From positions 100,843 to 164,842 of the forward strand of contig JABGUJ010000002.1 in the NCBI GenBank assembly GCA_018646625.1: a stretch of 64,000 nt of DNA, in the 5' to 3' direction. How positions within the stretch are numbered: the stretch's first letter is position 1; each line of letters begins with the position of its first letter. This stretch comes from Candidatus Woesearchaeota archaeon. Lineage in GTDB: Archaea > Nanobdellota > Nanobdellia > Woesearchaeales > JABGUJ01. The notes beneath the pieces are model-generated. The model saw only the letters and a program-made list of their open reading frames with translations. It was not told the DNA's origin and made no database searches. This document shows, one piece after another, positions 3,030 to 61,416 of this stretch. Both the position numbers and the translations under genes were made by a program.

Positions 3030-3287
3030 TTATTCTATTAATTTATAGACAGTATTACCTTCTTTAACTTCTTCTTTCACTTTCATGCCAATATCCTGTC
3101 CAGAACTTGCATTCTTAATCTCATTACGATCAATCTGCATAGAATTAACAGATTGTTCAAAAGTACTACCATCACTTCGTTCAATAAGAATATTATCTCC
3201 AACGTCAAGCGAGCCACTTAACATAACAACTGCGACATTTAGTTTGCTAAAGAAGTGAGTTATTTTTCCTATTTCTTTTTTCTCCAT
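3030..3287 (-). CDS. Small beta-barrel protein, EF-Tu domain-2-like (putative translation-associated factor)
   Basis: 85 aa with a GKITHFFSKLNVAVVMLSGSLDVGDNILI pattern typical of stand-alone EF-Tu domain-2-like proteins; lies next to rpl15e. Confidence 0.35.
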   Translation of the reverse strand: MEKKEIGKITHFFSKLNVAVVMLSGSLDVGDNILIERSDGSTFEQSVNSMQIDRNEIKNASSGQDIGMKVKEEVKEGNTVYKLIE

Positions 3288-3323
3288 TCATACCACCAGT
3301 ATGTAATATGTTCTTGAAGTTTA

Positions 3324-3878
3324 TTAAGATAATGGTTTTATGCCTAATGCTTCAATAATTTCTGAAACCACATCTTCCGGAACTCTTTCAGTTGTATCGA
3401 CCCTCAATACGTGATCAAATCTAGATAAATAATGGTCGTACATATCGCCAATCTTTTTTTGATGTTCAACATTTTCACGTTCAGCACGGCCAGGCCTTTG
3501 CTCAACATATCTTTTTTCAATCTCTTCCCAAGATGCAGTAACATGAATAATACAGTCTGGCTGAACTAGATCAGGAGGCATCTCTAAAACCTGATCTAAC
3601 AAAACAGAGTGCTCAGTCAAAGTAGAATAAACATACCTATCCACTACAACATCTCGTTCTTTAAGCAAGTCAGAAATTTCCGCAGAAGATAAGTGATTTC
3701 CTAACGTGTAGAACCCCAACCTAGATGTAGGTGATGAGAAATCGGCAAACTTGCGTAAAGATCTCATCGATTCGGGAGGGGATGCGTAATATACTGCACC
3801 TATCCTTTCCGCCAAACCTTCGGCCAGCGTAGTCTTTCCAGCACCATCCACGCCTTCAAATAAGTAAAATCGACCCAT
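3324..3878 (-). CDS. tmk: Thymidylate kinase
   Basis: P-loop FEGVDGAGKTT and dTMP kinase layout. The track ORF extends to 3932; the internal Met (MGRFYLFEG) is the likelier start. Confidence 0.75.
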   Translation of the reverse strand: MGRFYLFEGVDGAGKTTLAEGLAERIGAVYYASPPESMRSLRKFADFSSPTSRLGFYTLGNHLSSAEISDLLKERDVVVDRYVYSTLTEHSVLLDQVLEMPPDLVQPDCIIHVTASWEEIEKRYVEQRPGRAERENVEHQKKIGDMYDHYLSRFDHVLRVDTTERVPEDVVSEIIEALGIKPLS

Positions 3879-3918
3879 GGCGGTGTTGCCACTGCACAGT
3901 TTAAAAATCTTTCGAGAA

Positions 3919-4581
3919 TTAAAGCTGACCAATTACCTTGCGTATTGCATCAAACTCATCATCAAATATGTGCGCAGAAGGAGATAATGTAGTTAATTTA
4001 CCAATCTTTACTGCAAGTTTCTTAGCCACATATTTCTGCAGGGTATAAATCTGATAAACATTAGCAGGCCAACCAAAGAACATTTCATTACTTCTTACAA
4101 ATGCAAAAACATTTAGTCGATCATTTCTAAGTTTAAAATCAATTAAACACAAACTGGGGACCAATTTCCGTTCAGGATTAGCATCTTCTTGAGGATCCCA
4201 GAGAATACTCACCGCACGCCTAGATGTAGGATCTTTTTCAAGTACGGGTATAACATAATCATCAATTTGATTGATTTTTTTTCTAAAACTAAATAACGAA
4301 GGACCATAACTATATGTGTACACAGGAGATAATTTCTTAGTTAGTATGATGTTAGCAATCTCATCAAGAGGTGGATAAACCCATTTATTGAATCCATTCA
4401 ACATTTCAATAGGTCTTGTAACGTCAGGTGCCGGACTTCTAATTTCAACTAAAAGATTAAGCAACTCTCTACATTTTCGTTTATTTGTATCTTGAAAGTC
4501 ATCACCATTATCAAGTATGGCTTTAAGTGCAACTTTCCAAGCATCCGTTGTTGTTTCTGAGACTATTTCCATTTTATTCAA
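3919..4581 (-). CDS. thyA: Thymidylate synthase (short archaeal ThyA type)
   Basis: RRAVSILWDP matches ThyA RRIIVSAWNP. VPSLCL...VRSNEMFFGWPANVYQIYTL matches the PCH...QRSxDxxLGxPFNIASY catalytic-Cys region. Confidence 0.65.
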   Translation of the reverse strand: MNKMEIVSETTTDAWKVALKAILDNGDDFQDTNKRKCRELLNLLVEIRSPAPDVTRPIEMLNGFNKWVYPPLDEIANIILTKKLSPVYTYSYGPSLFSFRKKINQIDDYVIPVLEKDPTSRRAVSILWDPQEDANPERKLVPSLCLIDFKLRNDRLNVFAFVRSNEMFFGWPANVYQIYTLQKYVAKKLAVKIGKLTTLSPSAHIFDDEFDAIRKVIGQL

Positions 4582-6190
4582 TAAATGAGGTTAGTTTTAG
4601 ATTTGCACCTCTTATATCTCCAAAGTCATAACAATATAAAGGAATGTTATAGGAGTTTAGTAAAACTCCAAACTCTCTTATAATTTCATCAACTTCAATT
4701 GTACCAGAACGATAGATTCTTAGTCTATCTCCGCCATCAAATATCTGAAATATTTTCTCTTTAGCTTTAAGTGATTCTTTAAACGCAGGAAGATACATAT
4801 CTTCTAGACTTCTAACTTGTATCTTAGTAAATTTTTCTGAACTAAACTCTCGCTCATTAAACTCTTTGAACGCACAAGAAAACAATATTCTAAACCTAAT
4901 AGGCATACCACATGCAAGATAAATTGATTCTTGAGATCTACAGAAGGCATTAATTTCTTCAGAACAACTTTTAATCAAGTTAACAACAAGATCAGGATCT
5001 ACTTTCTCTTGTTTCCAACCATAGTTCCAGAATCTGATATAGTTTTTACTAAGATAGAAGAACTGCCTCTCAAAATCCTTATTCATGGATATAATGTTCT
5101 TGAAATATTCTTCACTCTTATTTCTCTGAAGAGAGTTTGCAAACAATAATGATTTAGCAACAGTTGTAACAAAAGGACGAAACTGATTCATACCAAGCTC
5201 TTTAAGAAACTTATCAACATCAATAGCGATAGTACTCTGAGAACAAGCTATACCTTTTGCCCTATCGCGATAACGCAATTCATAAGATGCCCATTCTTTA
5301 TCTTCAAAAGTATAAGGTCCTGCACGTCCAAGCATATATGGAGATTTATGAAGTTCAGTGTTTTGAATATACATTCTAATCTTTGAACGAGCAAACACTG
5401 CGATAACTTTTGAGAGAACTTTAGAGTTTTCTTGCAGATCTTTAAAATTCATTGCAAAAACGAAACTTATTTGGTCAATAGATATTCTTCTCGTCGACTC
5501 AAGATACTCAAGAACATTTATACTCTTAGGAGGTATTATATTCTTCATGTTAATTATGCAAGTTATTTCTTTTCCATAATCAACACATTCTGATTCAAGT
5601 TTATTGAAGAATGACAAGATATCCTCAGAAGATGAGTTCATTAAGAAAAATTCAAAATCATTCAAACCTACAACATCATTCACATTTGTAAAACAAAGCG
5701 ATATTGCCTGAAATAAATCATCCAGAGAACCATACGCACAACACTCAAGTAAAACTGCGTTAAGCCTATCGATCCAAGTTGCAGGCTCATACTTAAAACT
5801 AATACCTTTTCGTTCATAACCTTCAATGGGCATACCTGGAATAGAAGGTCTACTTATGATGAGTTTTTTTTTGTATTTTCCAATATGGACTTCTTCACCT
5901 TCGGCAATAGTGAGTGTAAAGTACTTTTCGCCCTTAACACCTTCTTTAGTTATACGAAGAACCTTTTCAGCTACAAGTTTGTTTAGATAATAGAGAGTTT
6001 TTCTATGAAGTTGCGCTTTGAGATGTTTAGCATTATTTATTCTATCATTGTCTTGTATGATATTATCAAAATCATCACGAATTTTTTGATATTCTTCAGG
6101 AAATATTGCTTTTACAATCTTAGTAGTAGATAACTCAGAAGAAGGACTTCCTTTAAACAAATTGAGTATGTCATACTCTGTTTTTCTCAT
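4574..6190 (-). CDS. Hypothetical protein (538 aa) with a possible N-terminal winged-helix domain
   Basis: Long ORF with consistent coding bias and no recognisable catalytic motif. Transcribed divergently from the Lrp regulator gene. Confidence 0.4.
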   Translation of the reverse strand: MRKTEYDILNLFKGSPSSELSTTKIVKAIFPEEYQKIRDDFDNIIQDNDRINNAKHLKAQLHRKTLYYLNKLVAEKVLRITKEGVKGEKYFTLTIAEGEEVHIGKYKKKLIISRPSIPGMPIEGYERKGISFKYEPATWIDRLNAVLLECCAYGSLDDLFQAISLCFTNVNDVVGLNDFEFFLMNSSSEDILSFFNKLESECVDYGKEITCIINMKNIIPPKSINVLEYLESTRRISIDQISFVFAMNFKDLQENSKVLSKVIAVFARSKIRMYIQNTELHKSPYMLGRAGPYTFEDKEWASYELRYRDRAKGIACSQSTIAIDVDKFLKELGMNQFRPFVTTVAKSLLFANSLQRNKSEEYFKNIISMNKDFERQFFYLSKNYIRFWNYGWKQEKVDPDLVVNLIKSCSEEINAFCRSQESIYLACGMPIRFRILFSCAFKEFNEREFSSEKFTKIQVRSLEDMYLPAFKESLKAKEKIFQIFDGGDRLRIYRSGTIEVDEIIREFGVLLNSYNIPLYCYDFGDIRGANLKLTSFIE

Positions 6191-6420: not shown

Positions 6421-6888
6421 ATGGGCTTTAATCAAAAAGAATTATTGATTATGTCTCATCTTAGGGAGAATTCTAGAAAGAATTTAACTAAGATAAGTAA
6501 AGAAACCAAAATAGCAGTTTCTACAATCTTTGATAAGATTAAGAAATATGAAGGCGGAATAATAAAGAAACATACCTGCATCTTGGATTTTACAAAGCTA
6601 GGATTTGATGTAAGAGTCAAAATGATCCTTAAGTGTCCTAGACCTAATAGAGATGAAATACAAGAATTTCTTGTAAGACATCCAAGAGTTAACTCAGTAT
6701 ACAAAATAAACAATGGCTACGACTTCTTGATTGAAGGGATCTTTAGACATATGAAAGATCTCAGCGAGTTTACTGAAAAATTGGATGGATACAAAGTGAA
6801 AGATAGACACGAGTATTTTGTACTAGAGGATCTAAAAATCGAGTCGTTCCTTAGCGATCCGTCTTATATTGAGATGGTAGGCATTTAG
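6421..6888 (+). CDS. Lrp/AsnC-family transcriptional regulator
   Basis: N-terminal HTH (LTKISKETKIAVSTIFDKIKK) plus a C-terminal RAM-like domain; size is typical of the family. Confidence 0.7.
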   Translation: MGFNQKELLIMSHLRENSRKNLTKISKETKIAVSTIFDKIKKYEGGIIKKHTCILDFTKLGFDVRVKMILKCPRPNRDEIQEFLVRHPRVNSVYKINNGYDFLIEGIFRHMKDLSEFTEKLDGYKVKDRHEYFVLEDLKIESFLSDPSYIEMVGI

Positions 6889-7056: not shown

Positions 7057-7491
7057 ATGGGAAAAATAGTAATTGAAAAAAAAGACATCGACATCTTAGA
7101 CATATTAAGAATCAATGCAAGATCTAGTTTATCAGATATAAGCAGAGAGACAAATATTCCATTATCTACAGTATTTGATAGAGTTAGACGTGTGGAATCT
7201 AATCTTATTAAGAAATATACTTCTTTTATCGACTTCGGCAATATAGGTGTAAGAAACAAAAGAGGACTAATAATTACTGGAGAAATGCCCGAATTGAAGA
7301 GTCACAGCATAAACAAAATAATGCGATTAGATGAGGGTAGACTGTTTATTGAGCTTTGTCATAATTCCCAGAACTCAGTTAAAGAATTTGATGAAGAGAT
7401 GAAAAAGAGTAAATGTTCAATTCTGCATGATTTCGAATATGAACCTATTGTTGAAGAAAAAATAATACCCAGTACATTGTTTAATGAATAG
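7057..7491 (+). CDS. Lrp/AsnC-family transcriptional regulator (second tandem paralog)
   Basis: HTH LSDISRETNIPLSTVFDRVRR followed by a RAM-like C-terminus. Confidence 0.65.
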   Translation: MGKIVIEKKDIDILDILRINARSSLSDISRETNIPLSTVFDRVRRVESNLIKKYTSFIDFGNIGVRNKRGLIITGEMPELKSHSINKIMRLDEGRLFIELCHNSQNSVKEFDEEMKKSKCSILHDFEYEPIVEEKIIPSTLFNE

Positions 7492-7553: not shown

Positions 7554-9041
7554 GTGCCAGGCAAGGAGTTAGTCGATTATATAGTAAATGAGCTTAATTC
7601 TGGATATTCTGCACCTCAATTAAGACAATATTTGATTTCTAAAGGTTACAACATAAGAGATGTAGATCAAGCAATTAGAGCTGCAGAATCTTACCTTATC
7701 AGACCACCCACACAACAAGGCCAGGATGCACTTCAGGATGTTGTTCAGCACTACTTAGAACAAGGTCAAGATGTTAATCTAATAAGAAACAGATTACAAT
7801 CACAAGGATACAATTCAGTAGATATTGATAGCGCACTAGGAGTCAAACAAGAAACTAAGAGAAAAATAAACATAATGCCAATTGCAGTTATTGTTATGTT
7901 TATAGCATTCGTTTCATTTGGAGGGTTTGTTTTATTTAAAATCAAGGGGATTGAAGAACCTGATGTTAAACCATGGATGCAGTTAGATGTTGAATCAGAA
8001 TTACTTTCAAAACATCCAGAACCGGGAAAGAAAGCAATATTCACAGTAAAAGCAAGTAACTTAGGTACACTAAAAGGGTATGATATTAGATTTACATATT
8101 TGTTGACAGAAGTTAAGACAAGAAAAGTAATTCTATTTGAAGAAGAAGATAAAGCCATACAAACAACATTGAGTTTTGTGAAAGACTTCGATCTACCTAC
8201 ATATGTAAAACCAGGAAATTATTTATTTGAAGTTAAAGCTACTTATGTTAACACAACTGCAAAATCATCACAAGCATTCAGAATATATTCCGATTCTACA
8301 GAGCAGGATGAACCAGAGTGTACAGTTAATAGTGACTGCGAGAATGATGAGAAATGCGATAAAGGATTATGCATCCTTAGAGAAGATTTTGATTGTAGAG
8401 AAGATAGAGATTGTGAATTAGGGGAAGTGTGTAATGGTGGACAGTGCACAACAACCGAAGACCAACCAGAATGTTTCTTTAATAGTGATTGTGAAGATAA
8501 GGAAGAGTGTAAAAATGGATTGTGCACTTCAGTAATGCCGGATGGTGCGGAATGTTTAGTAAATAATGATTGCGGTACGAATCAAGTTTGTCAGAATCTT
8601 CAATGCATCTCAGTAGAGAACTTAGCTAATGTTTCATTAGAAGATATGACTGCAACCGATGTTAAGCTTTTAATTATAAAGTCTGCAGAAAACGACCCAA
8701 TAAAAGCGAAAGAGATTTGCGATCAATACAAGGGAGATTATATTGGTAATCTGTGCTTTATTTATCTATCGGAAGCCGCAAACAATCCAGAGTATTGTGA
8801 GTTTATTGAAGATGTAGACTCAAAAGAAAGATGCTTTGCTAGTTTCTTATATCACCATAACGACTTTACTGTGTGTGATCGATTAACCAAACCACAGAAC
8901 ATTAATTTTTGTGAAATGGCAAAGAGATTAAGTTTATTGAGTCAGTTTGGTAATTTATCAGGAGAAGTTCCTACTCAAGTTCTTGATTATCAGCAAGAAT
9001 CTGAAGAGGAAGAAGAACCTGTTGTTTATCAAGGAAACTGA
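7554..9041 (+). CDS. Membrane-anchored extracellular protein with tandem Cys-rich (C-x5-C...G-x-C) modules
   Basis: A cytoplasmic N-terminus is followed by a TM helix (IMPIAVIVMFIAFVSFGGFVLF). After it come five or more repeats of the type ECTVNSDCENDEKCDKGLC, FDCREDRDCELGEVCNGGQC, ECFFNSDCEDKEECKNGLC and ECLVNNDCGTNQVCQNLQC. Confidence 0.55.
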   Translation: MPGKELVDYIVNELNSGYSAPQLRQYLISKGYNIRDVDQAIRAAESYLIRPPTQQGQDALQDVVQHYLEQGQDVNLIRNRLQSQGYNSVDIDSALGVKQETKRKINIMPIAVIVMFIAFVSFGGFVLFKIKGIEEPDVKPWMQLDVESELLSKHPEPGKKAIFTVKASNLGTLKGYDIRFTYLLTEVKTRKVILFEEEDKAIQTTLSFVKDFDLPTYVKPGNYLFEVKATYVNTTAKSSQAFRIYSDSTEQDEPECTVNSDCENDEKCDKGLCILREDFDCREDRDCELGEVCNGGQCTTTEDQPECFFNSDCEDKEECKNGLCTSVMPDGAECLVNNDCGTNQVCQNLQCISVENLANVSLEDMTATDVKLLIIKSAENDPIKAKEICDQYKGDYIGNLCFIYLSEAANNPEYCEFIEDVDSKERCFASFLYHHNDFTVCDRLTKPQNINFCEMAKRLSLLSQFGNLSGEVPTQVLDYQQESEEEEEPVVYQGN

Positions 9042-9044
9042 ATT

Positions 9045-11564
9045 CTACGAGAAATAAGGCCTCGAATAATGAGCATATGCACCATAGTTCTCAAACTTGC
9101 CGCGCATATTTAACATATCGATTTCATTATCATTCTCAGGTCTTGGGAAATCTACTATTTTAATAATTAAACCATTCCTGTGTGTGACGAGTGAATTATA
9201 GCTAACATTCCAATATACACTCCTATTTATACCCGTGAAATAAACACCACCAACCTCAGCGTTCGGACCCACATGAGTGAAATTAGCAACATAATCCTGA
9301 ACTACTTCACAATCTGCATAAGCGCTATCACTCCCATTCTCAAAGAACCAGAGTTTAGTATCTTTAACACCATCGCAAATGTCAAGGGCCTCCGAGTCCA
9401 CACTCCCATTAATATGTAAACACCCACACACTTTTACTGCCGCACCATCCTCCATAACAGTATCCACTTTACAATTCTCAGGCACACCTGTACGTAAGGT
9501 TTCCTTTTCACGCTCACAAATATCCATCATTTCATCATCGCTGCCGCAATCACATCTTCTCGTAGCATCAATATAATATCCAGCTTCATCAACTAAACTC
9601 CCTTCAACCTTCCATAAACCTGGAGCAAGAGGTAAACTCAAAATTGGTTGATCATTACGAATAATTAACGAAGTTGCCAAACGATCATCATCAGTATATT
9701 CAGTTACTCGCTGAAACTTAATAGAAATTAATTCATCATCTGCAAGTGCACGTTTTCCAGAAAAGTTCAAAGCAGGAATTATATCAATATCAACAATTTC
9801 AACATTAACAATAGGCGACATCTCAACATATTGAGTAAATGCATCATCAGGATAATCAACATTTACTTTGACTCTGTTTTTCACATATCCTTCCTTTGAA
9901 AAGACCATAAAGGCTTCCCCCCTACACATAGGGAGATTAGTTGTAGTTTCGGCCAAATTAGTAACTAGATCAAGCTCCGTGTTCAAATCATCCCACTTAC
10001 ATGTAACATATCTCCCACAAGTAAATTGAACATCTGCATTAGAGATAGGAGCATTAGTGTATTTATCATACACCACAAAAGTTCTTTCAGGACCAATTCT
10101 TTGCTCTTCATTACAGATAAGAGAGTCTTTTGCTTTATCGGTCATTAATTCAGAATCTAGTTCTTCTAGAAACTCCTCTTCACCGGATAACTCCATTTCA
10201 GTTCGTATCTGCTCTTCAACTAGTTCGGTACCCATTTCAACATCTCCAGGATTCAGAGGAACTCTTCCTTGACCATTCAAATAATCAAACAGATTCAGGT
10301 TTCTCCTTAAGCTAACTTCGTGTGCAAAGTAAAATGAATACGAATCTCGTCCATCTTTGAATGGAATGTCTTCTAATATCACCCTTATAAGAACAGGATA
10401 AGATAGATCATAAAAAAATCTATATTTATAAGTTTCATCACCAGTTATTATATCAAAAAAATCAGGACCTTTAATTGTCTTAGGTACGAGTTTATCGTCA
10501 TCCGCAGGCCAAATATTTGAGTAAACAGGCCAATCCAAATAAATAAATTCCACATTAATGTGATCTAAGATGTCAACATCTTGAAATAAATCAAATAAAA
10601 ATGGTTTTAATAAACCAGGAGAGCCCGGGACATCAATCAACTCAGAGTCTCGTAATCCTTCAACTTGAAACATGTTAACAGACAGCATAAGTACATCTTT
10701 GATCATTTTCTTTGATTTTTCCAGTGACCAAGTAACTTTATCTTCCCCATTAACTGAATCTGCAGAAAACGGAGGTAATTTATCAGAATCTAAACCAGAA
10801 TACAGAACTAAGGCATGCATAGTTGCATCTTCTAGCGATTGTGTTGCAGTAAGAGACTGCGACAATGCAAATGCAACCCCAAATACATCCATGAAATTAA
10901 ATGGCAACTCAGAACTAAATCGATCTATCCGAGTAACAAGCTCACCATCCTTTCCCCATCTTACTTCGAGAGGATAAATGAGATCTAGGAACATGACACT
11001 TTCAGCATAGTCAAATGATATAAATCTTCCAGGCAGCTCAGTAACATTGAAGCCCTGCAATCCAAATGCTTTGTACTGATCTAAGCACTCAGTCATATGA
11101 TTAAGAATATATCCTCGTACTTGGTTATTTACAAGATCAATCTCAGGAATATTCTCATTCGTAATTGTCAATGAACCACTTTCACTAGGTTCGGGGACAT
11201 AATACCAGTAAGGAACGGCATTTCGTTCATCAAATAAAGTAACACCACTACTTTCAACCGGATTGTCTAGATCAAAATAAAATGATCTTCCAGACAATTC
11301 TTCATTTAATGGATCAAGATAACCTCCATGTAAACCTATGTAATCAAATGCCTCATGACTAACTTTCCGTAAACAATCTTCCACAGCCTGCTTCACAGGT
11401 CTAATTTCTAAAGGAATATCCTCCGCAGTTGAATCAGGTTTCAAAGACTCAATCTGAATCTCACGAATATATAACATAAGTCCGACTAATATCAAGATAA
11501 TAAATCCCACCAAGATGTAGATAGATATTTGAGATCTTTGCGATCTATTATCCATTCTTAACAC
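9045..11564 (-). CDS. Large N-terminally anchored extracellular protein (839 aa)
   Basis: N-terminal TM (ISIYILVGFIILILVGLMLYI), a long ectodomain and a Cys-rich C-terminal region. Overlaps the upstream gene by 17 nt, indicating an operon. Confidence 0.5.
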   Translation of the reverse strand: MLRMDNRSQRSQISIYILVGFIILILVGLMLYIREIQIESLKPDSTAEDIPLEIRPVKQAVEDCLRKVSHEAFDYIGLHGGYLDPLNEELSGRSFYFDLDNPVESSGVTLFDERNAVPYWYYVPEPSESGSLTITNENIPEIDLVNNQVRGYILNHMTECLDQYKAFGLQGFNVTELPGRFISFDYAESVMFLDLIYPLEVRWGKDGELVTRIDRFSSELPFNFMDVFGVAFALSQSLTATQSLEDATMHALVLYSGLDSDKLPPFSADSVNGEDKVTWSLEKSKKMIKDVLMLSVNMFQVEGLRDSELIDVPGSPGLLKPFLFDLFQDVDILDHINVEFIYLDWPVYSNIWPADDDKLVPKTIKGPDFFDIITGDETYKYRFFYDLSYPVLIRVILEDIPFKDGRDSYSFYFAHEVSLRRNLNLFDYLNGQGRVPLNPGDVEMGTELVEEQIRTEMELSGEEEFLEELDSELMTDKAKDSLICNEEQRIGPERTFVVYDKYTNAPISNADVQFTCGRYVTCKWDDLNTELDLVTNLAETTTNLPMCRGEAFMVFSKEGYVKNRVKVNVDYPDDAFTQYVEMSPIVNVEIVDIDIIPALNFSGKRALADDELISIKFQRVTEYTDDDRLATSLIIRNDQPILSLPLAPGLWKVEGSLVDEAGYYIDATRRCDCGSDDEMMDICEREKETLRTGVPENCKVDTVMEDGAAVKVCGCLHINGSVDSEALDICDGVKDTKLWFFENGSDSAYADCEVVQDYVANFTHVGPNAEVGGVYFTGINRSVYWNVSYNSLVTHRNGLIIKIVDFPRPENDNEIDMLNMRGKFENYGAYAHYSRPYFS

Positions 11565-12396
11565 CTCTCGATTTAGCCAGGAATAAATAACAAAAGTATC
11601 TCCCCCATGAATGAAATAGCAAGATAACTAAAGTGAATATAAATGCCGCAACATAATTCGAAATATGAGAAATAATAGGCAAAGACAGCAATGATATTAA
11701 CGAAAGTAAAACCACTAAGATTAATGTTAAAACCACAAAAAGAAACATAGTAGTCGGTAGCATTTTCAGAGATAATATAGATAGTTTTCTTAGATTTTTA
11801 AATCGCCCTAATTTGCAGTTATAATATACATTTGATACAAAGATAAAATTAACAAACAAAAGAAGAAGAATTATAACAAACAATGATATATGAAGAACAT
11901 GAACACCTTCATTAGATAATAATATTGCAAATAACACAGAGAAAAATAAGAATATGTAACTTATAATCAAATTTTTTAGTAAGAAACTTAGAAAGAATGA
12001 TAACAATGATACCTTAATCCTTCTAATAGTGCGCCAGATAATTGCAGAGGCGAATGAAAATATAGAGAAAAATAATCCCCAGATTACTAAGAAAGATATT
12101 AAACATAAGCCCATAAAGACGAGTATACTTTTACTAGTATCAGTAGACTCGTTTAACCAACTAGAATAAATTTCTTCAGAATTAGCTAAAGCTTCAGTAC
12201 CATATTGAGAATAGATATTCTCAGATCTCTCCTTAAGATCATACTTATCTGCATAAAACAATACAGACGTGATAAACAAAGAAGACAATAATATAAAGAT
12301 AAGAACTAGTGCAATGTCACACGCTACAAGTTTAAAAAGATTAAATCTAAATGCACGTTTACTCTTACCGACACATTTAACTAACGATCTAATCAT
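11548..12396 (-). CDS. Polytopic membrane protein (about 6-7 TM)
   Basis: Multiple hydrophobic helices. Overlaps both neighbours by 4 nt and 17 nt (translational coupling). Confidence 0.5.
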   Translation of the reverse strand: MIRSLVKCVGKSKRAFRFNLFKLVACDIALVLIFILLSSLFITSVLFYADKYDLKERSENIYSQYGTEALANSEEIYSSWLNESTDTSKSILVFMGLCLISFLVIWGLFFSIFSFASAIIWRTIRRIKVSLLSFFLSFLLKNLIISYIFLFFSVLFAILLSNEGVHVLHISLFVIILLLLFVNFIFVSNVYYNCKLGRFKNLRKLSILSLKMLPTTMFLFVVLTLILVVLLSLISLLSLPIISHISNYVAAFIFTLVILLFHSWGRYFCYLFLAKSRGVKNG

Positions 12397-13052
12397 ATTT
12401 CTTTCTCCACAACTTCAACAGACCACTCATGGTCTTGGTAATTCTTATCTTGATAAGTAACACTAAAGTTCACATATCTTTTATGATCTGTATGATTAAT
12501 ATAAAAAACATCAAATCCAGATGCACCTTCATAATTAGTAATGTAGTTTGTTGCAGACTGATCTTGTATTATATTTATGAGTTGAGGCGTAACACCTGAC
12601 TCGCCAATCAAATACAATTCAAAAGGAATTACAATATCTTCAACAGCACCCTCGCTATCAGGTAATTCAGTAGAATAAGGCGCCTCCACGTACCAACTAG
12701 TTTGATACATATATTGAGACATGTTATCGTCTTGATATATCAAAGTACGGTCAGCCTGTATTGCAACCGTTAATTCAGATAAATAAGATCTATGTGCAGC
12801 CGTTGCTGCACTGCTTGCAGGAATATTGGGTCCACCGGTTAGCAAACAAACAAACTTCTCAGTATCGGTAACATCGTACCAAGGCATAAGTATTGCATCC
12901 ATTGGCTGTCCAAGATAAACCATAGAATCAAAATAACTCGCATCCTCATCAGCTAAAGCCGAAAACGACAATACAAACAAAGCTATAAAAATTATAGAAC
13001 CCAGTCTGTGCATCGCACTAATCATCATACTCAACTCCGTTGCAATTTTCAC
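12393..13052 (-). CDS. Secreted protein (signal peptide)
   Basis: N-terminal signal LGSIIFIALFVLSFSALA. Overlaps the giant upstream gene. Confidence 0.45.
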   Translation of the reverse strand: MKIATELSMMISAMHRLGSIIFIALFVLSFSALADEDASYFDSMVYLGQPMDAILMPWYDVTDTEKFVCLLTGGPNIPASSAATAAHRSYLSELTVAIQADRTLIYQDDNMSQYMYQTSWYVEAPYSTELPDSEGAVEDIVIPFELYLIGESGVTPQLINIIQDQSATNYITNYEGASGFDVFYINHTDHKRYVNFSVTYQDKNYQDHEWSVEVVEKEI

Positions 13053-16000
13053 TCATTGTACCCATAATTTTATCCATATATTCTGAACCTTCCATAGGTG
13101 TAGATAGTTCACCGTAATCATACATAAGCAATGCAGCATATTTCGCATATCCGTCATAAGATGGAACAGTGATCCACTCAGTTAAAGCAGATCCTTTCAT
13201 ATTCTTCAACGCAGGCAATTCCATTATTTTCTGAGTAATCCACTGTAACACTCTAGAAGTTAGATAAGAAGGAGGGAAAAGAAGTTTTAAGGCAGCCGCG
13301 AGTATTGTTTGAATAATTAACCACACAGATGGCAAACCAATCTCAACAATCGCACCATGATAATACAAACACTCCCTTATAGATCTCATTTCTGTACAAA
13401 CATTAGCTGGAAGAGTTCCATATCGTCCAATGTCTTGAAGGCATTTGTATTCTTTACAAAGAATTTGTTTTCGTTTTCTTTCTGCAGCCAACTGACCAGG
13501 GTAACAGAAACAACCTTCCGCCACTTCCCGACTTTTGTACGGATTCATCTCAAGATTATCATCTAGAGATAAGCCTCCTGCAACCATTCCGGCCTGAGCC
13601 CCCGCCATACCTGCAGCTGCCACAGTTCCAGTAGCCGCACCAGCAGCCACACCGGCACCACCGGTCAAAGCAGCAGTTCCTAACATAGCATTGAATCCAG
13701 GTTCAATATTTGTACCTGCATAAGCATCTGATGTTTCAATCGCACCTTGAATTGCAGACGCAATCCCGTTCGAAATAAGACTATCAACAAGAGTATTAGT
13801 ACTAGCAAGTGTATTTACTATTTCATTTGCAGCTTCTTCGCCGACCCAACCGCCGAGATCCATACTATCAGCTACAGATTCAGTCAAATCATAAGTATCA
13901 GCTCCGGCCATTTGTAAACCCGCAGTTAAACTAGCCATTATACCCATTGCTTTAAAGAAACCTTCAGGTTTTGAAGCACCACTACCGTCTCCAATTGAAC
14001 ATAAATGGCAAGTATTTATCAAGCAAGTTGCCCTTGCCAACCAACCAGTAATGTGATACAACTCTTCTTGTTCCGTAGGTAAGTAATTCCAAAGATAGGA
14101 TGAAACTTTTAGTGCTGAAGTAGATACTTCGGTAAATATATCTAAAAGCCCACTCAATGCCGTACCAATAAAAGCACACTGAGATGTTTTAGGACATGCT
14201 TTTATTATTGGACTAAATATTATGAATGCAACAGTTGTTAATATTGTTACAATAGTAGTCATAAGAATTGCATATTGAAGATATTCGCAAGCATATCTTA
14301 TATATTCAGCCCAAATAATTATTTGATCAATCTTCTCATCAACGCCACGTAAATCTGATTTTACTCCATCAACAAGTTCACCAAACGCCTCATCAAAATA
14401 TCCAATAGGTAAATTAGCGAGCGGTGCAGTAAAGTTGACAGTTTCAAGCTCAATCTTTTCATAAAATACTAATCCATCACGAACAACAAAGCCAATGTTA
14501 CAACTTAGTTTTGGTTTTACAGGATTAAAACAACTAGAAGTATCCGTCTCAGAATCCTCACAAGGTGGTAGATCAGAACTATTGACTGCTTCAGCACCCA
14601 TTCCACCAAGCCTGAGCGATAGTATAGGCACATCTGCTTTCCCATTCAGAATCTGTGCTTCAGTTACTGGAAATTCACTATTAAAACAAGAAGTTGTACC
14701 TTTATGTAACTCAACATCCGTTAGAATACCTGAATGCATCAATGAGTGGATTTTTATATCAGTAGCTAAAACAGTTTCATATATTTTACAATTAGGATCC
14801 AAAGATATAGGCATTAACTCAACATAAAGAGGAAATGGCTTAACAGATGCAGCACGCCAATCTACAACACTTGGAGTAACACGGCCCTTATTCAAATATA
14901 CACAATTCGGCACACCAGTATTATTAATACCGCAAATAGTTACTACCTTACGAATTGAATCAAAATTTCCTGCAGCATCATAAGCAGTAAGTTCAATCTC
15001 GGCAGAAGGAACTGGAAATGAAACAATGTTAGACAGATTTACATTGCACTCATATAAGCCATCATAATGCTTATATGGGCGACAAACTCCAACAAATGGT
15101 TCATTAACATCAACAATTCTGTTATGCTCATCAATTGCTCCATTGATCTCGATCTTTGTTACAGGAGAAGTGTCTTCAACAAGAACTCTATAAGTTACAA
15201 CATCATTCGATGTAGGACAATCTCTAAATGAATTAATAGTATAATTGGTTCTTTTAATTACCGGAGGTTCGTTATCAAAAGTGACTCTAAATTGCTGGTT
15301 GCTTATTCTATTCTGCGCATCATCAAAAGAACTATGTAGTCTAATTGTAACCACATCACTTGAAACAATATCAGGGCGATTAACCCAGATTGGTTCCCAA
15401 ATACAACTCCAAGTTGTTGATCCATTTGTTGTTTTACAGCTGTTTGCTTTTGTTTTCTGATGCCCTACACGAATAGAAGACATGTCAAGATAAACATCAC
15501 CATTATTCAATCCAGCACCACTCTCTTCAAGAATTAATTCAAACTTATTTTCTTTACCACCAACAAAGTTTTGAACATATCCGCCTTCAATTACAGGAGA
15601 ATTAGAAAGAAACTTCTTGACAATTGGCTTACTAGAATCCGCTTGAAAATTAACTTCATGAGTTTTGGTTACATAATTACCAGCACCATCACCCACCTTT
15701 ATTTTTGCAATCCTGGTAGAAGACGTTGATACAATCATCGGAAACTGCCAGATACAAGTAGCAGTATTATCACCAGAGAGAGAACAACTTTGCGGTTCTA
15801 AAGATGCAAATCGAGCATGATCACTTGGTGGTAAACCATCTTGAATAAATGAAACAACATCAATGACAGAATCACCTAAATTCACATTAGAAATACTAAG
15901 ATCCGAATAACTAACAGTGAGTTTAGCATTATAAGAATTTCCAGGATTCACAAATAGTTCTTCACCCAACACACCAGCAGTTTCAAAAAGTATATCTTTT

Positions 16001-16719
16001 ATCACAGGTTCTAAGTTATCAAGAGTGACAGTTAATGATGAAGAATCCACATAATTATCTAGCTTGTCAGATACACTAAGAATCGCATCGCCTATAAGTT
16101 CACCAGGAAATGATTTCATATCAAAATATCCAGTAGTAGTACAAGAAGTTTGAGATTTAATTGTAGGGGTTGCAGACACAAATAAATCCCCATAAAATAA
16201 TGATATCTGATTTATTCCCGAACAATATCCATTAACTCTCGAAGTATCTGATACTCTAAAATTCAATCGTTTAGCAGACTCATCCCATGAAAAATCTTCA
16301 ACAAGTGGTGAAACGTCATCAATAGTAATCGAAGCAGAAGCCTGAGCAACTACAGAATAATCCTCATTTTTGTATATTACTTCAAGATTACCTGAAGGAA
16401 TCTTAAATTCTATTTCGCACTTATAACGATCACTTCCAAAAGGATTACAAGAATCGGCAGGATAGCCATTAAAGAGAACTCTGTTTTCATCTAAAGACTG
16501 CTCATTTGTCTTCACTAATGCAGCAACAGAAACTTCATCAGTTGGTTTAGCATAACCATTAACGCCATTCTCGCCAGAAATATGCACAATTTCAACAGCA
16601 TAATCCGCAGGAGGAGAAACAGGTTGAGCAAATGAACGAGCAGAAGCGAACGATAGAGATATCACAAGAAAACACATGAATATAGCTAAGTTTTGCTTGT
16701 ACACCCCTTTTAAGTACAT
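13018..16719 (-). CDS. Giant cell-surface protein (1233 aa): signal peptide, beta-rich ectodomain, C-terminal membrane segments and a Gly/Ala-rich stretch
   Basis: Signal peptide FLVISLSFASARSFAQP. Long Thr/Ser/Asn/Val-rich region typical of Ig-like beta domains. C-terminal hydrophobic helices and the GGAGVAAGAATGTVAAAGMAGAQAGMVAGG tract. Confidence 0.55.
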   Translation of the reverse strand: MYLKGVYKQNLAIFMCFLVISLSFASARSFAQPVSPPADYAVEIVHISGENGVNGYAKPTDEVSVAALVKTNEQSLDENRVLFNGYPADSCNPFGSDRYKCEIEFKIPSGNLEVIYKNEDYSVVAQASASITIDDVSPLVEDFSWDESAKRLNFRVSDTSRVNGYCSGINQISLFYGDLFVSATPTIKSQTSCTTTGYFDMKSFPGELIGDAILSVSDKLDNYVDSSSLTVTLDNLEPVIKDILFETAGVLGEELFVNPGNSYNAKLTVSYSDLSISNVNLGDSVIDVVSFIQDGLPPSDHARFASLEPQSCSLSGDNTATCIWQFPMIVSTSSTRIAKIKVGDGAGNYVTKTHEVNFQADSSKPIVKKFLSNSPVIEGGYVQNFVGGKENKFELILEESGAGLNNGDVYLDMSSIRVGHQKTKANSCKTTNGSTTWSCIWEPIWVNRPDIVSSDVVTIRLHSSFDDAQNRISNQQFRVTFDNEPPVIKRTNYTINSFRDCPTSNDVVTYRVLVEDTSPVTKIEINGAIDEHNRIVDVNEPFVGVCRPYKHYDGLYECNVNLSNIVSFPVPSAEIELTAYDAAGNFDSIRKVVTICGINNTGVPNCVYLNKGRVTPSVVDWRAASVKPFPLYVELMPISLDPNCKIYETVLATDIKIHSLMHSGILTDVELHKGTTSCFNSEFPVTEAQILNGKADVPILSLRLGGMGAEAVNSSDLPPCEDSETDTSSCFNPVKPKLSCNIGFVVRDGLVFYEKIELETVNFTAPLANLPIGYFDEAFGELVDGVKSDLRGVDEKIDQIIIWAEYIRYACEYLQYAILMTTIVTILTTVAFIIFSPIIKACPKTSQCAFIGTALSGLLDIFTEVSTSALKVSSYLWNYLPTEQEELYHITGWLARATCLINTCHLCSIGDGSGASKPEGFFKAMGIMASLTAGLQMAGADTYDLTESVADSMDLGGWVGEEAANEIVNTLASTNTLVDSLISNGIASAIQGAIETSDAYAGTNIEPGFNAMLGTAALTGGAGVAAGAATGTVAAAGMAGAQAGMVAGGLSLDDNLEMNPYKSREVAEGCFCYPGQLAAERKRKQILCKEYKCLQDIGRYGTLPANVCTEMRSIRECLYYHGAIVEIGLPSVWLIIQTILAAALKLLFPPSYLTSRVLQWITQKIMELPALKNMKGSALTEWITVPSYDGYAKYAALLMYDYGELSTPMEGSEYMDKIMGTMSENCNGVEYDD

Positions 16720-16799
16720 AGCTAGATTGTGGATTAGACGCTTTTTAAAGGTTTCTAATCAAGAAGCAGTAAAATAAAGAAATAAAAAAGAAATAGAAC

Positions 16800-25983: not shown

Positions 25984-26105
25984 CCCTACCTAGCTCAATG
26001 GCTAGAGCGTTCGGCTGTAGATGTTGCATGACTTTGCATTAAGCTTGGAATGAAGTGCAACCAGCTGTTACCGAAAGGTTCCTGGTTCAAATCCGGGGGT
26101 GGGGA
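25984..26105 (+). tRNA. tRNA-Tyr(GTA) with a ~49 nt intron at the canonical 37/38 position
   Basis: Hand-folded. Acceptor ccctacc/ggtgggg with a C1-G72 pair (archaeal Tyr identity element), D stem gctc/gagc, anticodon stem ttcgg/ccgaa with loop ctgtag|a, T arm cctgg-ttcaaat-ccggg. Exon order matches M. jannaschii tRNA-Tyr. Confidence 0.6.
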
Positions 26106-28429: not shown

Positions 28430-28520
28430 AGGCCGGTAGCTCAGCCTGGAGTTTAATTACGGGCAATAGAGCACTCGACTTTTAATCGAGTGGTCGCGGG
28501 TTCGAATCCCGTCCGGCCTA
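28430..28520 (+). tRNA. tRNA-Lys(TTT) with a ~17 nt insertion (non-canonical intron) in the D-loop
   Basis: Acceptor aggccgg/ccggcct, D stem gctc/gagc, D-loop agcctgg[agtttaattacgggcaa]ta, anticodon stem ctcga/tcgag with loop ctTTTaa, T arm gcggg-ttcgaat-cccgt. Confidence 0.6.
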
Positions 28521-54513: not shown

Positions 54514-54562
54514 ATTCTGTTTAAGATATATTTAAATAATACTTCTAAGACAATTGTGTTAT

Positions 54563-54655
54563 GGGCCTATAGCATAGCCTGGATAGTGCGTCCGGCTTCG
54601 GAAGACTTATGTCTGTAGATACCGGTTGACGGGGGTTCGAATCCTCCTAGGCTCA
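54563..54655 (+). tRNA. tRNA-Arg(TCG) with a 19 nt intron at the canonical 37/38 position
   Basis: Acceptor gggccta/taggctc, D stem gcat/gtgc, anticodon stem tccgg/ccggt with loop ctTCGg|[aagacttatgtctgtagat]|a, variable tgac, T arm ggggg-ttcgaat-cctcc. An Arg anticodon is the most parsimonious reading; Pro(CGG) is the alternative. Confidence 0.55.
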
Positions 54656-55923: not shown

Positions 55924-56059
55924 AGTATTAACTAGTCCGTGCTAATTTATATTTTTATCTTATTCAACCACTAATAGACTATATAGTCTGTTATAGAGGT
56001 ATATGTAGTTGATTACGGGTAGAAAAAGAGAATGTTTGGCTTGATTACTCTGAATTAGT

Positions 56060-57025: not shown

Positions 57026-57120
57026 TTTAGAGTGATTTAGAGCTAATTACTATAATAAATTATTGGCTTGAAAGGTGCGGATCCGCTCAAGCCATTACCA
57101 GTTCAAGTTATGGAATCAAC

Positions 57121-57306: not shown

Positions 57307-57370
57307 ACCCTTGCTAGAATTAAGCTAAATATATATAATTTGCGAATTTAGCAGAAAATCACTAAAACCA

Positions 57371-59610: not shown

Positions 59611-59637
59611 TTCCAATATTTGGCAGGGGTTTAAAAG

Positions 59638-60789: not shown

Positions 60790-60794
60790 CGAAA

Positions 60795-61415: not shown

Positions 61416-61416
61416 A

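What the first reader, a model, noticed from the sequence alone, without database searches (positions are those of the whole stretch)
7554..16719. Cluster of giant secreted and membrane proteins (translationally coupled operon) plus a Cys-rich module protein
Four minus-strand genes (1233 aa, 219 aa, 282 aa polytopic, 839 aa) overlap each other by 4-35 nt. A plus-strand membrane-anchored protein with five or more C-x5-C-x5-C-x-G-x-C modules sits next to them. The modules are reminiscent of eukaryotic EB/Dickkopf-like cysteine knots. The 1233 aa protein combines a signal peptide, a long beta-rich ectodomain, C-terminal membrane helices and a Gly/Ala-rich tract. A surface complex like this is what one would expect for attachment to a host or partner cell, and it has no obvious named homologs.
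Basis: inference. Interest (0 to 1): 0.6.

Follow-up and report, generated by a model that had tools for sequence, protein, structure and literature searches.

The report
Swappable surface-protein gene cassette in Woesearchaeota
Four overlapping genes in a tiny symbiotic-type archaeon (Woesearchaeota) encode an uncharacterised cell-surface module: an Ig-repeat giant, a small secreted protein, a multi-pass membrane protein and a giant protein with a pilin-type signal. The module is conserved across the order, has been exchanged wholesale between near-identical strains, and is a good candidate for partner or virus recognition.

Summary
Four co-directional, overlapping minus-strand genes (A 1233 aa, B 219, C 282, D 839) lie tail-to-tail with a plus-strand Cys-rich membrane protein (E 495). 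The genome is a Ca. Woesearchaeota MAG.

A to D match no Pfam, NCBIfam, PHROG, PADLOC or PDB family, but they are not orphans. D-like genes occur in 73 species-level DPANN genomes. A-like genes lie within 6 kb in 23 of 30 well-flanked loci. E-like genes abut D in 24 loci. The A C-terminal domain has 1275 cluster representatives in metagenomes.

D-family proteins carry a near-invariant prepilin-type (class III) N-terminus, KK-G|Q-ITIFIIIG. A is a Sec-secreted array of about five Ig-like domains on a conserved Cys-rich helical base.

Against a sister strain, flanking genes are 90-98% identical but A to D only 42-65%, with saturated synonymous divergence. The cassette is therefore an old allele swapped in by recombination. 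Variation sits in the membrane-distal parts.

Best reading: a lineage-specific, antigenically variable envelope complex (adhesin or receptor, possibly envelope lattice). Function is inferred, not shown. An S-layer role is the main rival. The E modules number four, not five or more, and are a lineage-specific insert.

The parts
16742..16749 (-). TATA-like box (TTTAAAAA) 23-30 nt upstream of the A start codon. It is preceded by a T-rich run (about 16771-16799) just after the IleRS stop codon.
   Evidence: Read directly from the sequence. It suggests that A to D is a separate transcription unit with a short leader or none. The inference rests on general knowledge of archaeal promoters.
13018..16719 (-). 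Gene A, 1233 aa. It has a Sec-type signal peptide, about five Ig-like domains, a further beta-rich region and a conserved Cys-rich helical C-terminal domain.
   Evidence: The family-wide consensus shows repeated D-x3-P-x-I domain boundaries with paired Cys. Relatives hit Big_13, DUF7743 and Big_3_3.
16627..16719 (-). Signal peptide of A (aa 1-31, ...SLSFASARSFA|QP). The first 55 aa or so are 100% identical to the sister allele, which marks the left recombination boundary.
   Evidence: In codon columns 1-100 pS is 0.27, against 0.54-0.78 in the rest of the gene.
14920..16617 (-). Variable Ig-like array of A (about aa 35-600). This is the most divergent part between the two alleles.
   Evidence: (pN 0.28-0.44).
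13021..14517 (-). Conserved C-terminal 'base' domain of A (aa 735-1233). It is Cys-rich and predicted helical, with hydrophobic segments at aa 817-835 and 1123-1147.
   Evidence: Exhaustive HMMER search found 1275 representatives at E<=1e-3. There is no PDB or Pfam match. The AlphaFold model was unusable, with pLDDT 36.
13570..13899 (-). Gly/Ala-rich tract of A (about aa 941-1050), an apparently lineage-specific insertion.
   Evidence: Among the family members aligned it is present only in the window protein and its 59%-identical relative.
13354..13548 (-). Signature motif of the A family (aa 1058-1122): dPyKS-x7-C-x-C-x-PG-x6-K-x-RQI-x-C-x4-C-x7-G-x6-C-x8-C-x-Y-x2-G.
   Evidence: Consensus of 127 family members. 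The cysteines are invariant.
12393..13052 (-). Gene B, 219 aa by the longest ORF (more likely 210-211 aa from an ATG at 13028 or 13025). It is a small acidic secreted protein.
   Evidence: The B family occurs in 12 loci at the same position after A.
11548..12396 (-). Gene C, 282 aa, a polytopic membrane protein with about 6 transmembrane helices. No catalytic-looking motif is conserved.
   Evidence: It belongs to a roughly 276-aa family found in 30 loci (profile E=3.6e-10).
9045..11564 (-). Gene D, 839 aa (836 aa from the ATG at 11555). It has a class III (prepilin-like) signal and anchor, a conserved novel alpha/beta domain and variable beta-sandwich domains.
11472..11540 (-). Prepilin-like N-terminus of D: QRS|QISIYILVGFIILILVGLML.
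   Evidence: The family motif K-[KR]-[G/A/S]|Q-[IVL]-T-[IVL]-F-I-I-I-G is found in 87 of 96 members, with Q at +1 invariant. The window has Ser at -1, a variant seen in 6 of 87.
10155..11417 (-). Conserved membrane-proximal domain of D (about aa 50-470), with motifs HGGY, VPYW, KLPP, YDLSYPV and E-x-N-L-R-x-N.
   Evidence: A 71-sequence profile finds nothing credible in the PDB. AlphaFold pLDDT is about 65-75 in this region.
9048..10097 (-). Variable membrane-distal part of D (about aa 490-839). It contains CnaB/transthyretin-like beta-sandwich domains and a Cys-rich insert (aa 671-752) that is absent from distant relatives.
7554..9041 (+). Gene E, 495 aa, the conserved neighbour. From N to C terminus it has two cytoplasmic 'GY' three-helix repeats (7554-7853), a transmembrane helix (7881-7937), a CARDB-like Ig domain (about 7971-8288), four Cys modules (8319-8606) and a conserved Cys helical-repeat C-terminus (about 8676-8948).
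   Evidence: The E family is adjacent to D in 24 loci. E is not part of the swapped cassette, being 92.5% identical.

Best explanation
A to D encode a cell-envelope complex specific to Woesearchaeota and related Nanoarchaeia, whose exposed parts vary between strains.

Proposed working, with the basis for each step:
1. The operon is transcribed from its own TATA-like box, and the overlapping frames couple translation so that the four proteins are made together. The sequence features are shown; the coupling is inferred.
2. A and B are exported by Sec. This rests on signal peptides seen across the family.
3. D is made with a prepilin-type (class III) signal. It is probably cut after the small residue at -1 by the cell's prepilin peptidase. 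It then stays held by its N-terminal hydrophobic helix, either in the membrane or in a short pilus-like stem. The motif is shown; processing is inferred.
4. C is the multi-pass membrane platform (inferred).
5. The conserved parts, namely the Cys-rich C-terminal base of A and the membrane-proximal domain of D, dock to each other and to C. The Ig array of A and the beta-sandwich end of D point outward (inferred from the conservation pattern).
6. The outward parts are the target of diversifying or balancing selection by whatever touches them: partner or host cells, or viruses. Whole cassettes are exchanged between strains by homologous recombination (shown).
7. E is a conserved bitopic neighbour with a cytoplasmic three-helix domain and is a candidate accessory or anchor (inferred).
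For: Genes and transcription unit. The genes are real and form one unit.

No named family. A to D have no Pfam, NCBIfam, PHROG or PADLOC hit. Profile searches of the PDB found nothing.

Organism. The window is from a Ca. Woesearchaeota MAG, GCA_018648045.1.

Distribution and synteny.
- The D family is present in 73 species-level genomes, essentially all DPANN.
- Two module layouts recur. Type 1 is A-B-C-D with a convergent E. Type 2 is D-A-X-C-D'. Both sit side by side in some genomes.
- Among 30 loci with at least 6 kb on both sides of D, A lies within 6 kb in 23, B or X in 21, and E in 13.

Protein features.
- The prepilin-like motif is present in 87 of 96 D-family members, with Q at +1 invariant.
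- A-family proteins have Sec signal peptides and Ig-like domains.
- The A family has 1275 representatives with a uniform architecture.

Allele exchange.
- Flanking genes are 90-98% identical at the protein level, against 59%, 63%, 42% and 65% for A, B, C and D.
- Flank dS is 0.27-0.72, whereas dS across the operon is saturated even in its conserved domains. The breakpoints lie inside the first 60 codons or so of A and at the D/E boundary.
- Divergence is concentrated in the N-terminal Ig array of A and the C-terminal beta-sandwich part of D.
- The identical A protein was found on 22 contigs, including one NCBI assembly and two JGI samples, so alleles are discrete and stable rather than hypermutating.

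Fold. The C-terminal domains of D resemble CnaB/transthyretin-like domains of Gram-positive pilins, adhesins and SlaB.
Against: - There is no experimental or expression evidence.
- No physical interaction has been shown.
- Structure prediction failed for the base domain of A (pLDDT 36) and was only moderate for D (pLDDT 57).
- The window's D has Ser instead of Gly or Ala at -1, so cleavage is uncertain. Pfam's class III signal model does not score any D-family member.
- No prepilin peptidase, pilus ATPase or platform gene lies in the window or recurs within 10 kb of the 73 loci.
- Membrane insertion of the A C-terminus is not a family-wide feature.
- The B-to-X relationship is unproven (hhalign probability 26%).
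Confidence: 0.5

Rival explanations
1. The module encodes the S-layer, or an S-layer plus its anchor, of Woesearchaeota. A would be the Ig-domain canopy protein and D the membrane-anchored stalk, analogous to SlaA/SlaB. Strain-level hypervariability would be driven by viruses.
For: - A has the generic architecture of archaeal S-layer proteins: a signal peptide, an array of Ig-like domains and a C-terminal hydrophobic region.
- The module is order-wide and sits in a housekeeping neighbourhood next to MetRS and IleRS.
- D shows a Foldseek hit to SlaB, 8qox_B.
- DPANN S-layer proteins are still unidentified and lack homology to known ones (bioRxiv 10.1101/2023.10.27.564410).
- The surface-antigen type of allele swap is also compatible with an S-layer.
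Against: - A has fewer N-glycosylation sequons than expected by chance, 6 against about 11.
- The codon adaptation of A to D (0.63-0.67) is at the low end for the window, below RNA polymerase and ribosomal proteins (0.67-0.78). This is a weak test in such a genome.
- Many genomes carry two or three paralogous modules side by side.
- The SlaB match is a generic beta-sandwich match with TM-score about 0.1-0.17.
- Four or five dedicated components, including a polytopic protein and a prepilin-type subunit, are not typical of S-layers.
Confidence: 0.2
2. D is a giant minor or tip pilin of a type IV pilus-like fibre assembled by machinery encoded elsewhere. A, B and C would be fibre-associated adhesin and assembly factors.
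For: - The near-invariant class III signal motif has Q at +1, as in EppA-type archaeal pilins. That comparison rests on my own knowledge; the motif itself comes.
- Small canonical pilin genes lie a few kb upstream of the module in L047, at 3030-3656 and 5511-6116.
- The C-terminal domains of D resemble pilin and adhesin domains.
Against: - No PilB/FlaI-type ATPase, PilC/FlaJ-type platform or peptidase recurs near any of the 73 loci or occurs in the window.
- No other class III-type ORF is in the window.
- Type 2 modules carry two 650-750-aa D paralogues, which is hard to fit into a thin fibre.
- Class III signals are also used by non-pilus surface proteins, for example the Sulfolobus sugar-binding proteins (own knowledge).
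Confidence: 0.12
3. The module is a contact-dependent conduit or fusion apparatus: a cytoplasmic bridge, a secretion device or a fusogen that links the DPANN cell to its partner.
For: - All components are membrane or extracellular proteins.
- The base domain of A is large and has hydrophobic helices.
- E and G have cytoplasmic domains that could couple to the inside of the cell.
- The module is restricted to DPANN.
- Bridges between DPANN cells and their hosts have been imaged, but no genes have been assigned to them (PMC11329633).
Against: - There is no ATPase or other energy source in the module.
- There is no sequence similarity to fusexin/HAP2 or to secretion-system proteins in Pfam or the PDB.
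- The hydrophobic helices of A are not conserved family-wide.
- The idea is purely circumstantial.
Confidence: 0.1
4. The cluster is a remnant of an integrated virus or mobile element that encodes structural or entry proteins.
For: - The divergent allele sits in an otherwise conserved backbone.
- Codon adaptation is lowish, close to that of the integrase region.
- BFVD hits to phage baseplate and tail proteins share the same beta-sandwich domains.
Against: - There are no PHROG hits.
- No integrase, att site or replication gene lies next to the cluster.
- The chromosomal position next to MetRS and IleRS is the same across distant genomes.
- The module is order-wide and vertical-looking.
- The BFVD hits are generic domains.
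Confidence: 0.03

Closest known systems
Archaeal class III (type IV prepilin-like) signal-peptide proteins: pilins, archaellins and the Sulfolobus 'bindosome' sugar-binding proteins
   Same: D-family proteins start with a short basic stretch, then [G/A/S]|Q, then a hydrophobic helix of about 20 residues. This motif is present in 87 of 96 members.
   Different: - The mature part is 600-900 aa and matches no pilin, archaellin or binding-protein family.
- No assembly ATPase or platform gene is nearby.
- The window's copy has Ser at -1.
- The Pfam class III signal model does not score it.
Two-component archaeal S-layers (SlaA/SlaB of Sulfolobales) and candidate DPANN S-layer proteins (NEQ300, MJ1_0160)
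   Same: - A large secreted protein rich in Ig-like domains is paired with a membrane-anchored partner.
- Sequence divergence is extreme.
- There is a generic beta-sandwich similarity to SlaB.
   Different: - No sequence homology was detected.
- Glycosylation sequons are few.
- There is no codon-bias signature of high expression.
- The module has extra dedicated components (B/X, C, E, G) and multiple paralogous copies per genome.
- Homology to NEQ300 or MJ1_0160 could not be tested here.
Variable surface-antigen cassettes exchanged by recombination, such as bacterial O-antigen or capsule loci, pilin and S-layer variants, and metagenomic 'hypervariable islands'
   Same: The flanks are conserved, the cassette is deeply divergent with saturated dS, the breakpoints are sharp, and the variation is in the exposed parts.
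   Different: The content is a set of protein families with no known relatives. Only two alleles were recovered here.
Gram-positive sortase pili and MSCRAMM adhesins (CnaB-type domains)
   Same: The beta-sandwich domains of D (aa 490-670) match CnaB and transthyretin-like folds of BcpA, SpaA and ancillary pilins.
   Different: - The match is at fold level only, with 8-16% identity and low TM-scores.
- There is no sortase motif.
- The host is an archaeon.
Pfam DUF7107 and the Dumpy DPY module (E495 Cys modules)
   Same: The four C-x5-C-x5-C-x4-C modules score 37 bits against the DUF7107 cut-off of 24.6.
   Different: - The Dumpy DPY match (24.7 bits) is below its cut-off of 27.
- There is no hit to EB or Dickkopf families.
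- The modules are a variable linker. Other E-family members carry Dicty_CTDC-type modules or none.

Membership tests
Archaeal class III signal-peptide (prepilin-like) proteins | A short charged N-region followed by [K/R]-[G/A] and a hydrophobic stretch of about 20 residues (FlaFind-type rule, from my own knowledge) | tested here: met
   In the family, K at -3, K/R at -2, G(66)/A(15)/S(6) at -1, Q at +1 (87 of 87), then ITIFIIIG.... The window copy reads R-S|Q-ISIYILVG, with Ser at -1, so it fails the strict G/A rule but matches a minority variant of the family.
Archaeal class III signal-peptide (prepilin-like) proteins | Match to a curated class III signal or pilin model | tested here: not met
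   No Pfam or NCBIfam hit for D839 or four relatives, even at E<=1. The curated model is very short, so this is weak negative evidence.
Archaeal class III signal-peptide (prepilin-like) proteins | Cleavage by a prepilin peptidase (PibD/FlaK/EppA) encoded in the genome | not testable with these tools
   Only 64 kb of the 843-kb contig is available. No peptidase was found in the window ORFs scanned.
Type IV pilus-like gene cluster | A PilB/FlaI-type ATPase and a PilC/FlaJ-type platform encoded with the pilin genes | tested here: not met
   No such family recurs within 10 kb of D in the 77 loci clustered, and none is in the window.
Archaeal S-layer proteins | Sequence or profile similarity to a known S-layer family | tested here: not met
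   No Pfam, NCBIfam or PDB sequence match. There is only a generic Foldseek beta-sandwich hit of D to SlaB.
Archaeal S-layer proteins | Signal peptide, Ig-like domain array and C-terminal anchor | tested here: met
   This architecture is shared by many non-S-layer surface proteins, so it is not discriminating.
Archaeal S-layer proteins | Dense N-glycosylation sequons and very high expression | tested here: inconclusive
   A has 6 sequons against about 11 expected, and D has 8 against about 5. CAI is 0.63-0.67 against 0.67-0.78 for RNA polymerase and ribosomal proteins. Both are proxies only, and no expression data were available.
Fusexin / HAP2 class II fusogens | Sequence or profile or fold similarity of the ectodomain | tested here: not met
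   A full-length A-family profile finds no fusexin or HAP2 chain in the PDB at E<=10, and there is no Pfam hit. The ectodomain fold was not modelled, so remote structural similarity is untested.
Pfam DUF7107 (E495 Cys modules) | Score above the Pfam gathering cut-off | tested here: met
   37.0 bits against a cut-off of 24.6, with four stretches. The four modules were confirmed by pattern.
   Neither appears among the Pfam hits at E<=1. The nearest named module is Dumpy DPY, at 24.7 bits and below its cut-off of 27.
Phage or virus structural proteins, and defence systems | Match to PHROGs or PADLOC models | tested here: not met
   No hits for A to E or four relatives.

The most novel reading that the evidence does not exclude
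The A-B-C-D(-E) module is the dedicated partner-contact apparatus of Woesearchaeota. It would be a previously unrecognised type of archaeal surface machine, built from a giant prepilin-anchored subunit and an Ig-array protein on a Cys-rich base. It would recognise and hold, or bridge to, the host cell, and its swappable alleles would set host range.
Probability: 0.15. Interest if true: 0.85.

Novelty: new variant of a known kind. Interest (0 to 1): 0.6.

Why it matters
Woesearchaeota and other DPANN archaea are abundant, uncultured and thought to live attached to other cells. No gene has yet been tied to their envelope or to partner recognition.

This work defines a concrete, order-wide gene module. 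It comprises five to seven protein families. One has more than a thousand cluster representatives in metagenomes. Another has a diagnostic prepilin-type N-terminus.

The module behaves in populations like a surface-antigen cassette. That gives a testable candidate for the S-layer or adhesin of this group. It gives a marker for strain-level host or virus specificity in metagenomes. It also adds several large protein families with no structural relatives that are worth solving.

Tried and rejected
1. Family scans of A to D (Pfam, NCBIfam, PHROGs, PADLOC) gave nothing.
2. Profile searches against PDB sequences were run for D (9 and 71 sequences), the A C-terminus, full-length A and E. The only informative result was that the N-terminal repeat of E resembles a designed three-helix miniprotein.
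3. The AlphaFold model of D839 had mean pLDDT 57. Foldseek against the PDB and BFVD matched only generic CnaB/transthyretin-like beta-sandwiches. The conserved N-terminal domain found no partner.
4. The AlphaFold model of the A C-terminal domain, built with 8 sequences, had pLDDT 36 and is unusable.
6. The first related-locus scan failed for lack of a conserved stretch. It was repeated with a narrower alignment.
7. The first whole-protein homologue search for A found only itself and one relative. The Gly/Ala tract may have filled the capped candidate list with unrelated proteins, though this was not tested. Searches with that tract left out, and the exhaustive HMMER search, recovered the family.
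8. hhalign of B against X gave 26% probability, which is inconclusive.
9. The idea that C is an archaeosortase-like or other enzyme was dropped, because no conserved Cys/His/Arg or acidic motif is present.
10. The idea of in-place hypermutation or phase variation was rejected. The identical A protein is on 22 contigs, and dS is saturated rather than dN alone being raised.
11. A viral or mobile origin was rejected.
12. Literature searches found no description of this module. The nearest are general notes on DPANN dark-matter secreted proteins and S-layer-like proteins (PMC6393860, PMC5898192).

Full report
WHAT IS THERE

ORF listing confirms five genes: A (13018-16719, minus strand, 1233 aa), B (12393-13052, minus, 219 aa), C (11548-12396, minus, 282 aa), D (9045-11564, minus, 839 aa) and E (7554-9041, plus strand, 495 aa). 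A to D overlap by 4-35 nt with the longest-ORF starts. With the ATG starts used in public gene calls they overlap by 4-11 nt. E is convergent with D, and their stop codons are 3 nt apart.

A T-rich run follows the stop codon of the upstream IleRS gene. A TTTAAAAA box lies 23-30 nt before the ATG of A. A to D therefore looks like a separate transcription unit.

The window comes from a Ca. Woesearchaeota MAG, GCA_018648045.1, on an 843-kb contig. Its intron-containing tRNAs and archaeal RNA polymerase and ribosomal operon fit this assignment.

PROTEIN ANATOMY

Hydropathy analysis gives the following picture.
- A has a Sec-type signal peptide and two strongly hydrophobic segments near its C-terminus (aa 817-835 and 1123-1147).
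- B has a signal peptide and is acidic.
- C has about six membrane helices.
- D has one N-terminal hydrophobic helix.
- E has a cytoplasmic N-terminus, one membrane helix and a large outside part.

A to D have no Pfam or NCBIfam match. E matches DUF7107 above its cut-off and the Dumpy DPY module just below its cut-off. E contains four C-x5-C-x5-C-x4-C modules, not five or more.

THE GENES ARE NOT ORPHANS

A sister strain carries the same locus in the same neighbourhood.

Profile searches with D found relatives at 21-28% identity. A scan of one genome per species then found 73 loci.
- By my count, about 35 are labelled Woesearchaeota.
- Another 14 are labelled Nanoarchaeia or Nanoarchaeota.
- About 19 carry the depositor's label 'uncultured Methanosarcinales archaeon', and one is labelled as a Binatia bacterium. 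Contigs with these labels share gene order, and nearly gene sizes, with Nanoarchaeia-labelled contigs (for example L047 against L072). I take these labels to be placeholders or mis-binning.

I called ORFs in all loci, built profiles and clustered the proteins. Two layouts recur.
- Type 1, as in the window, is A (about 1070-1450 aa), then B (about 190), then C (about 255-325, polytopic), then D (about 735-890), with an E-like gene convergent just after D.
- Type 2 is D (about 715 aa), then A (about 1050), then X (470-1300, secreted), then C' (about 290), then D' (about 650).
- Some genomes carry both types side by side (L017, L041, L059, L062).

The families that co-occur are D (73 loci), A (45), C (30), E (24), X (23), a bitopic 228-aa protein G (21) and B (12). 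In the 30 loci with at least 6 kb on both sides of D, an A gene lies within 6 kb in 23, B or X in 21, and E in 13. No ATPase or other cytoplasmic enzyme recurs. MetRS is a frequent neighbour, as it is in the window.

THE D FAMILY

In 87 of 96 members the N-terminus reads K, K/R, G (66), A (15) or S (6), then Q (invariant), I/V/L, T, I/V/L, F, I, I, I, G, followed by more hydrophobic residues. From my knowledge of archaeal prepilin-like proteins, this is the shape of a class III signal peptide. Q at +1 is typical of EppA-type pilins.

The window's D has R-S|Q-ISIYILVG, the minority Ser variant.

The next 420 residues or so form a conserved domain with motifs HGGY, VPYW, KLPP, YDLSYPV and E-x-N-L-R-x-N. 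This domain matches nothing credible in the PDB, even as a 71-sequence profile.

An AlphaFold model had mean pLDDT 57. Its confident beta-sandwich domains at aa 490-670 resemble CnaB and transthyretin-like domains of Gram-positive pilins, adhesins and SlaB, and phage baseplate or tail decorations. These are generic matches.

THE A FAMILY

All full-length members start with a Sec signal peptide. The consensus shows four to five D-x3-P-x-I domain boundaries with paired cysteines. A minority hit Ig-like Pfam models: Big_13 in 6 of 39, DUF7743 in 5 and Big_3_3 in 3.

The C-terminal 400 residues or so form a Cys-rich, predicted helical domain. Its signature is dPyKS...C-x-C-x-PG...K-x-RQI-x-C-x4-C...G...C...C-x-Y-x2-G.

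An exhaustive HMMER search with this domain found 1275 representatives at E<=1e-3 and 856 at E<=1e-10. The full-length proteins among the 150 best hits listed are mostly about 1000-1500 aa, with the domain at the C-terminus. Every member that carries a source name is called 'hypothetical protein' and comes from Woesearchaeota or Nanoarchaeota.

Among the family members aligned, the Gly/Ala tract is present only in the window protein and its close relative. Only the first hydrophobic helix is hydrophobic family-wide, and only moderately, with mean Kyte-Doolittle 1.3. Membrane insertion of this domain is therefore uncertain.

AlphaFold failed on this domain (pLDDT 36).

THE E FAMILY

From N to C terminus, E-family proteins have:
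- one or two copies of a cytoplasmic 40-residue 'GY' three-helix motif, which matches a designed HHH miniprotein (E=4e-6);
- a membrane helix;
- a CARDB/MG2-like Ig domain;
- a variable linker;
- a conserved C-terminal Cys helical repeat.

The four Cys modules of the window's E lie in the variable linker. Other members carry Dicty_CTDC-type modules there, or none.

POPULATION SIGNAL

Against the sister strain, twelve flanking genes are 73-99% identical in protein, and most are 90-98%. A, B, C and D are 59%, 63%, 42% and 65% identical. E is 92.5% identical.

Synonymous divergence is 0.27-0.72 in the flanks. It is saturated (1.3 to undefined) across A to D, including their conserved domains. The two cassettes are therefore much older than the genomes that carry them. 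This points to allele replacement by recombination, or long-maintained alleles, rather than to faster protein evolution alone.

One boundary lies in the first 60 codons or so of A, where the first 55 residues are identical. The other lies at the D/E junction.

Within the cassette, the N-terminal Ig array of A and the C-terminal part of D are the most divergent. The C-terminal base of A and the N-terminal domain of D are the most conserved. In each protein the conserved part is the end that carries the hydrophobic segment (the N-terminal helix of D, the C-terminal base of A), and the variable part is the opposite end; if those segments anchor the proteins, the variable parts point outward.

The identical A protein is found on 22 contigs, including one NCBI assembly and two JGI samples. 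Alleles are therefore discrete and stable.

INTERPRETATION

The best-supported reading is a lineage-specific envelope complex. A and B are secreted, C is a membrane platform, and D is held by a prepilin-type helix. The conserved bases dock together and the variable tips face outward. Those tips are under selection from whatever contacts the cell.

Which role this serves remains inference. It could be partner adhesion, a virus receptor or decoy, or a structural lattice.

I tested two S-layer proxies, and neither supports an S-layer role for A.
- A has fewer N-glycosylation sequons than chance, 6 against about 11.
- The codon adaptation of A to D is at the low end of the window.
Both are weak tests.

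A pilus operon is not supported, because no assembly genes are nearby. A viral or defence origin is not supported. The conserved chromosomal position also argues against it.

LITERATURE

I found no description of this module. Reviews of archaeal dark matter note DPANN-specific secreted proteins next to S-layer-like proteins (PMC6393860; PMC5898192). A study of Nanobdella states that no DPANN S-layer protein has been determined (bioRxiv 10.1101/2023.10.27.564410). I could not compare A or D with NEQ300, NEQ255 or MJ1_0160.

VERDICT

Host attachment is plausible but unproven.

The module is built from protein families with no known relatives. Its likely kind, a variable surface complex with a pilin-type subunit, is a known one. 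Interest is moderate to high.

Noticed in passing
window 37923-39062 (+) and 40019-41626 (+): This archaeon encodes a protein with three LysM domains plus a Peptidase_M15 domain (LysM E=1.7e-35), and a 535-aa protein with a Beta-lactamase2 domain (E=1.7e-23). Both sit just after the RNA polymerase, NusA, S12 and S7 operon. These are peptidoglycan-binding and peptidoglycan-processing types of enzyme, which is odd for an archaeon and hints at dealings with bacteria.
   Followed up: no
window 54562-62700: An archaeal phage-type integrase (54626-55507) overlaps or abuts an intron-containing tRNA-Glu (54562-54659). It is followed by genes of low codon adaptation. These include a protein with a Dicty_CTDC-type Cys repeat (58327-59610), two proteins related to 2'-5' RNA ligase (56060-57025, 61417-62700) and a coiled-coil membrane protein (60759-61415). 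This is probably an integrated element.
   Followed up: no
window 4574-6190 (-): A 538-aa protein with no family match and no hydrophobic segment is 97.8% identical between the two strains. It sits between thymidylate synthase and two Lrp/AsnC-type regulators (6421-6888, 7057-7491) that separate it from gene E. Its function is unknown.
   Followed up: partly
window 3324-3932 (-): The thymidylate kinase gene is only 73% identical to the sister strain, while its neighbours are 98% identical. This is a second, small divergence hotspot.
   Followed up: no
L047 9452-9736 (-), L047 3030-3656 and 5511-6116 (+): In a type 2 locus, the cytoplasmic 'GY' three-helix motif of the E family occurs as a stand-alone 94-aa protein directly upstream of D. 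Two small canonical pilin-like genes (KKG|ALELS..., KKG|LELP...) lie 4-7 kb upstream.
   Followed up: no
L059 4129-4767, L047 8742-9428 (family G, 21 loci): A conserved protein of about 212-228 aa often precedes the module but is absent from the window. It has an N-terminal helical region, a central stretch that gave a weak hit to a membrane-protein family and probably spans the membrane, and a Big_9 Ig domain.
   Followed up: partly
L064 and L065 (gene after D, 1776-1819 aa); L071, L077 and L079 (A-like genes of 1719-2508 aa): Some relatives carry much larger proteins, up to 2508 aa, in the A position. The module therefore tolerates large expansions of the ectodomain.
   Followed up: no
window 25984-26105, 28430-28520, 54562-54659: Three of the four tRNA genes in the window are longer than a standard tRNA and probably contain introns.
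   Followed up: no
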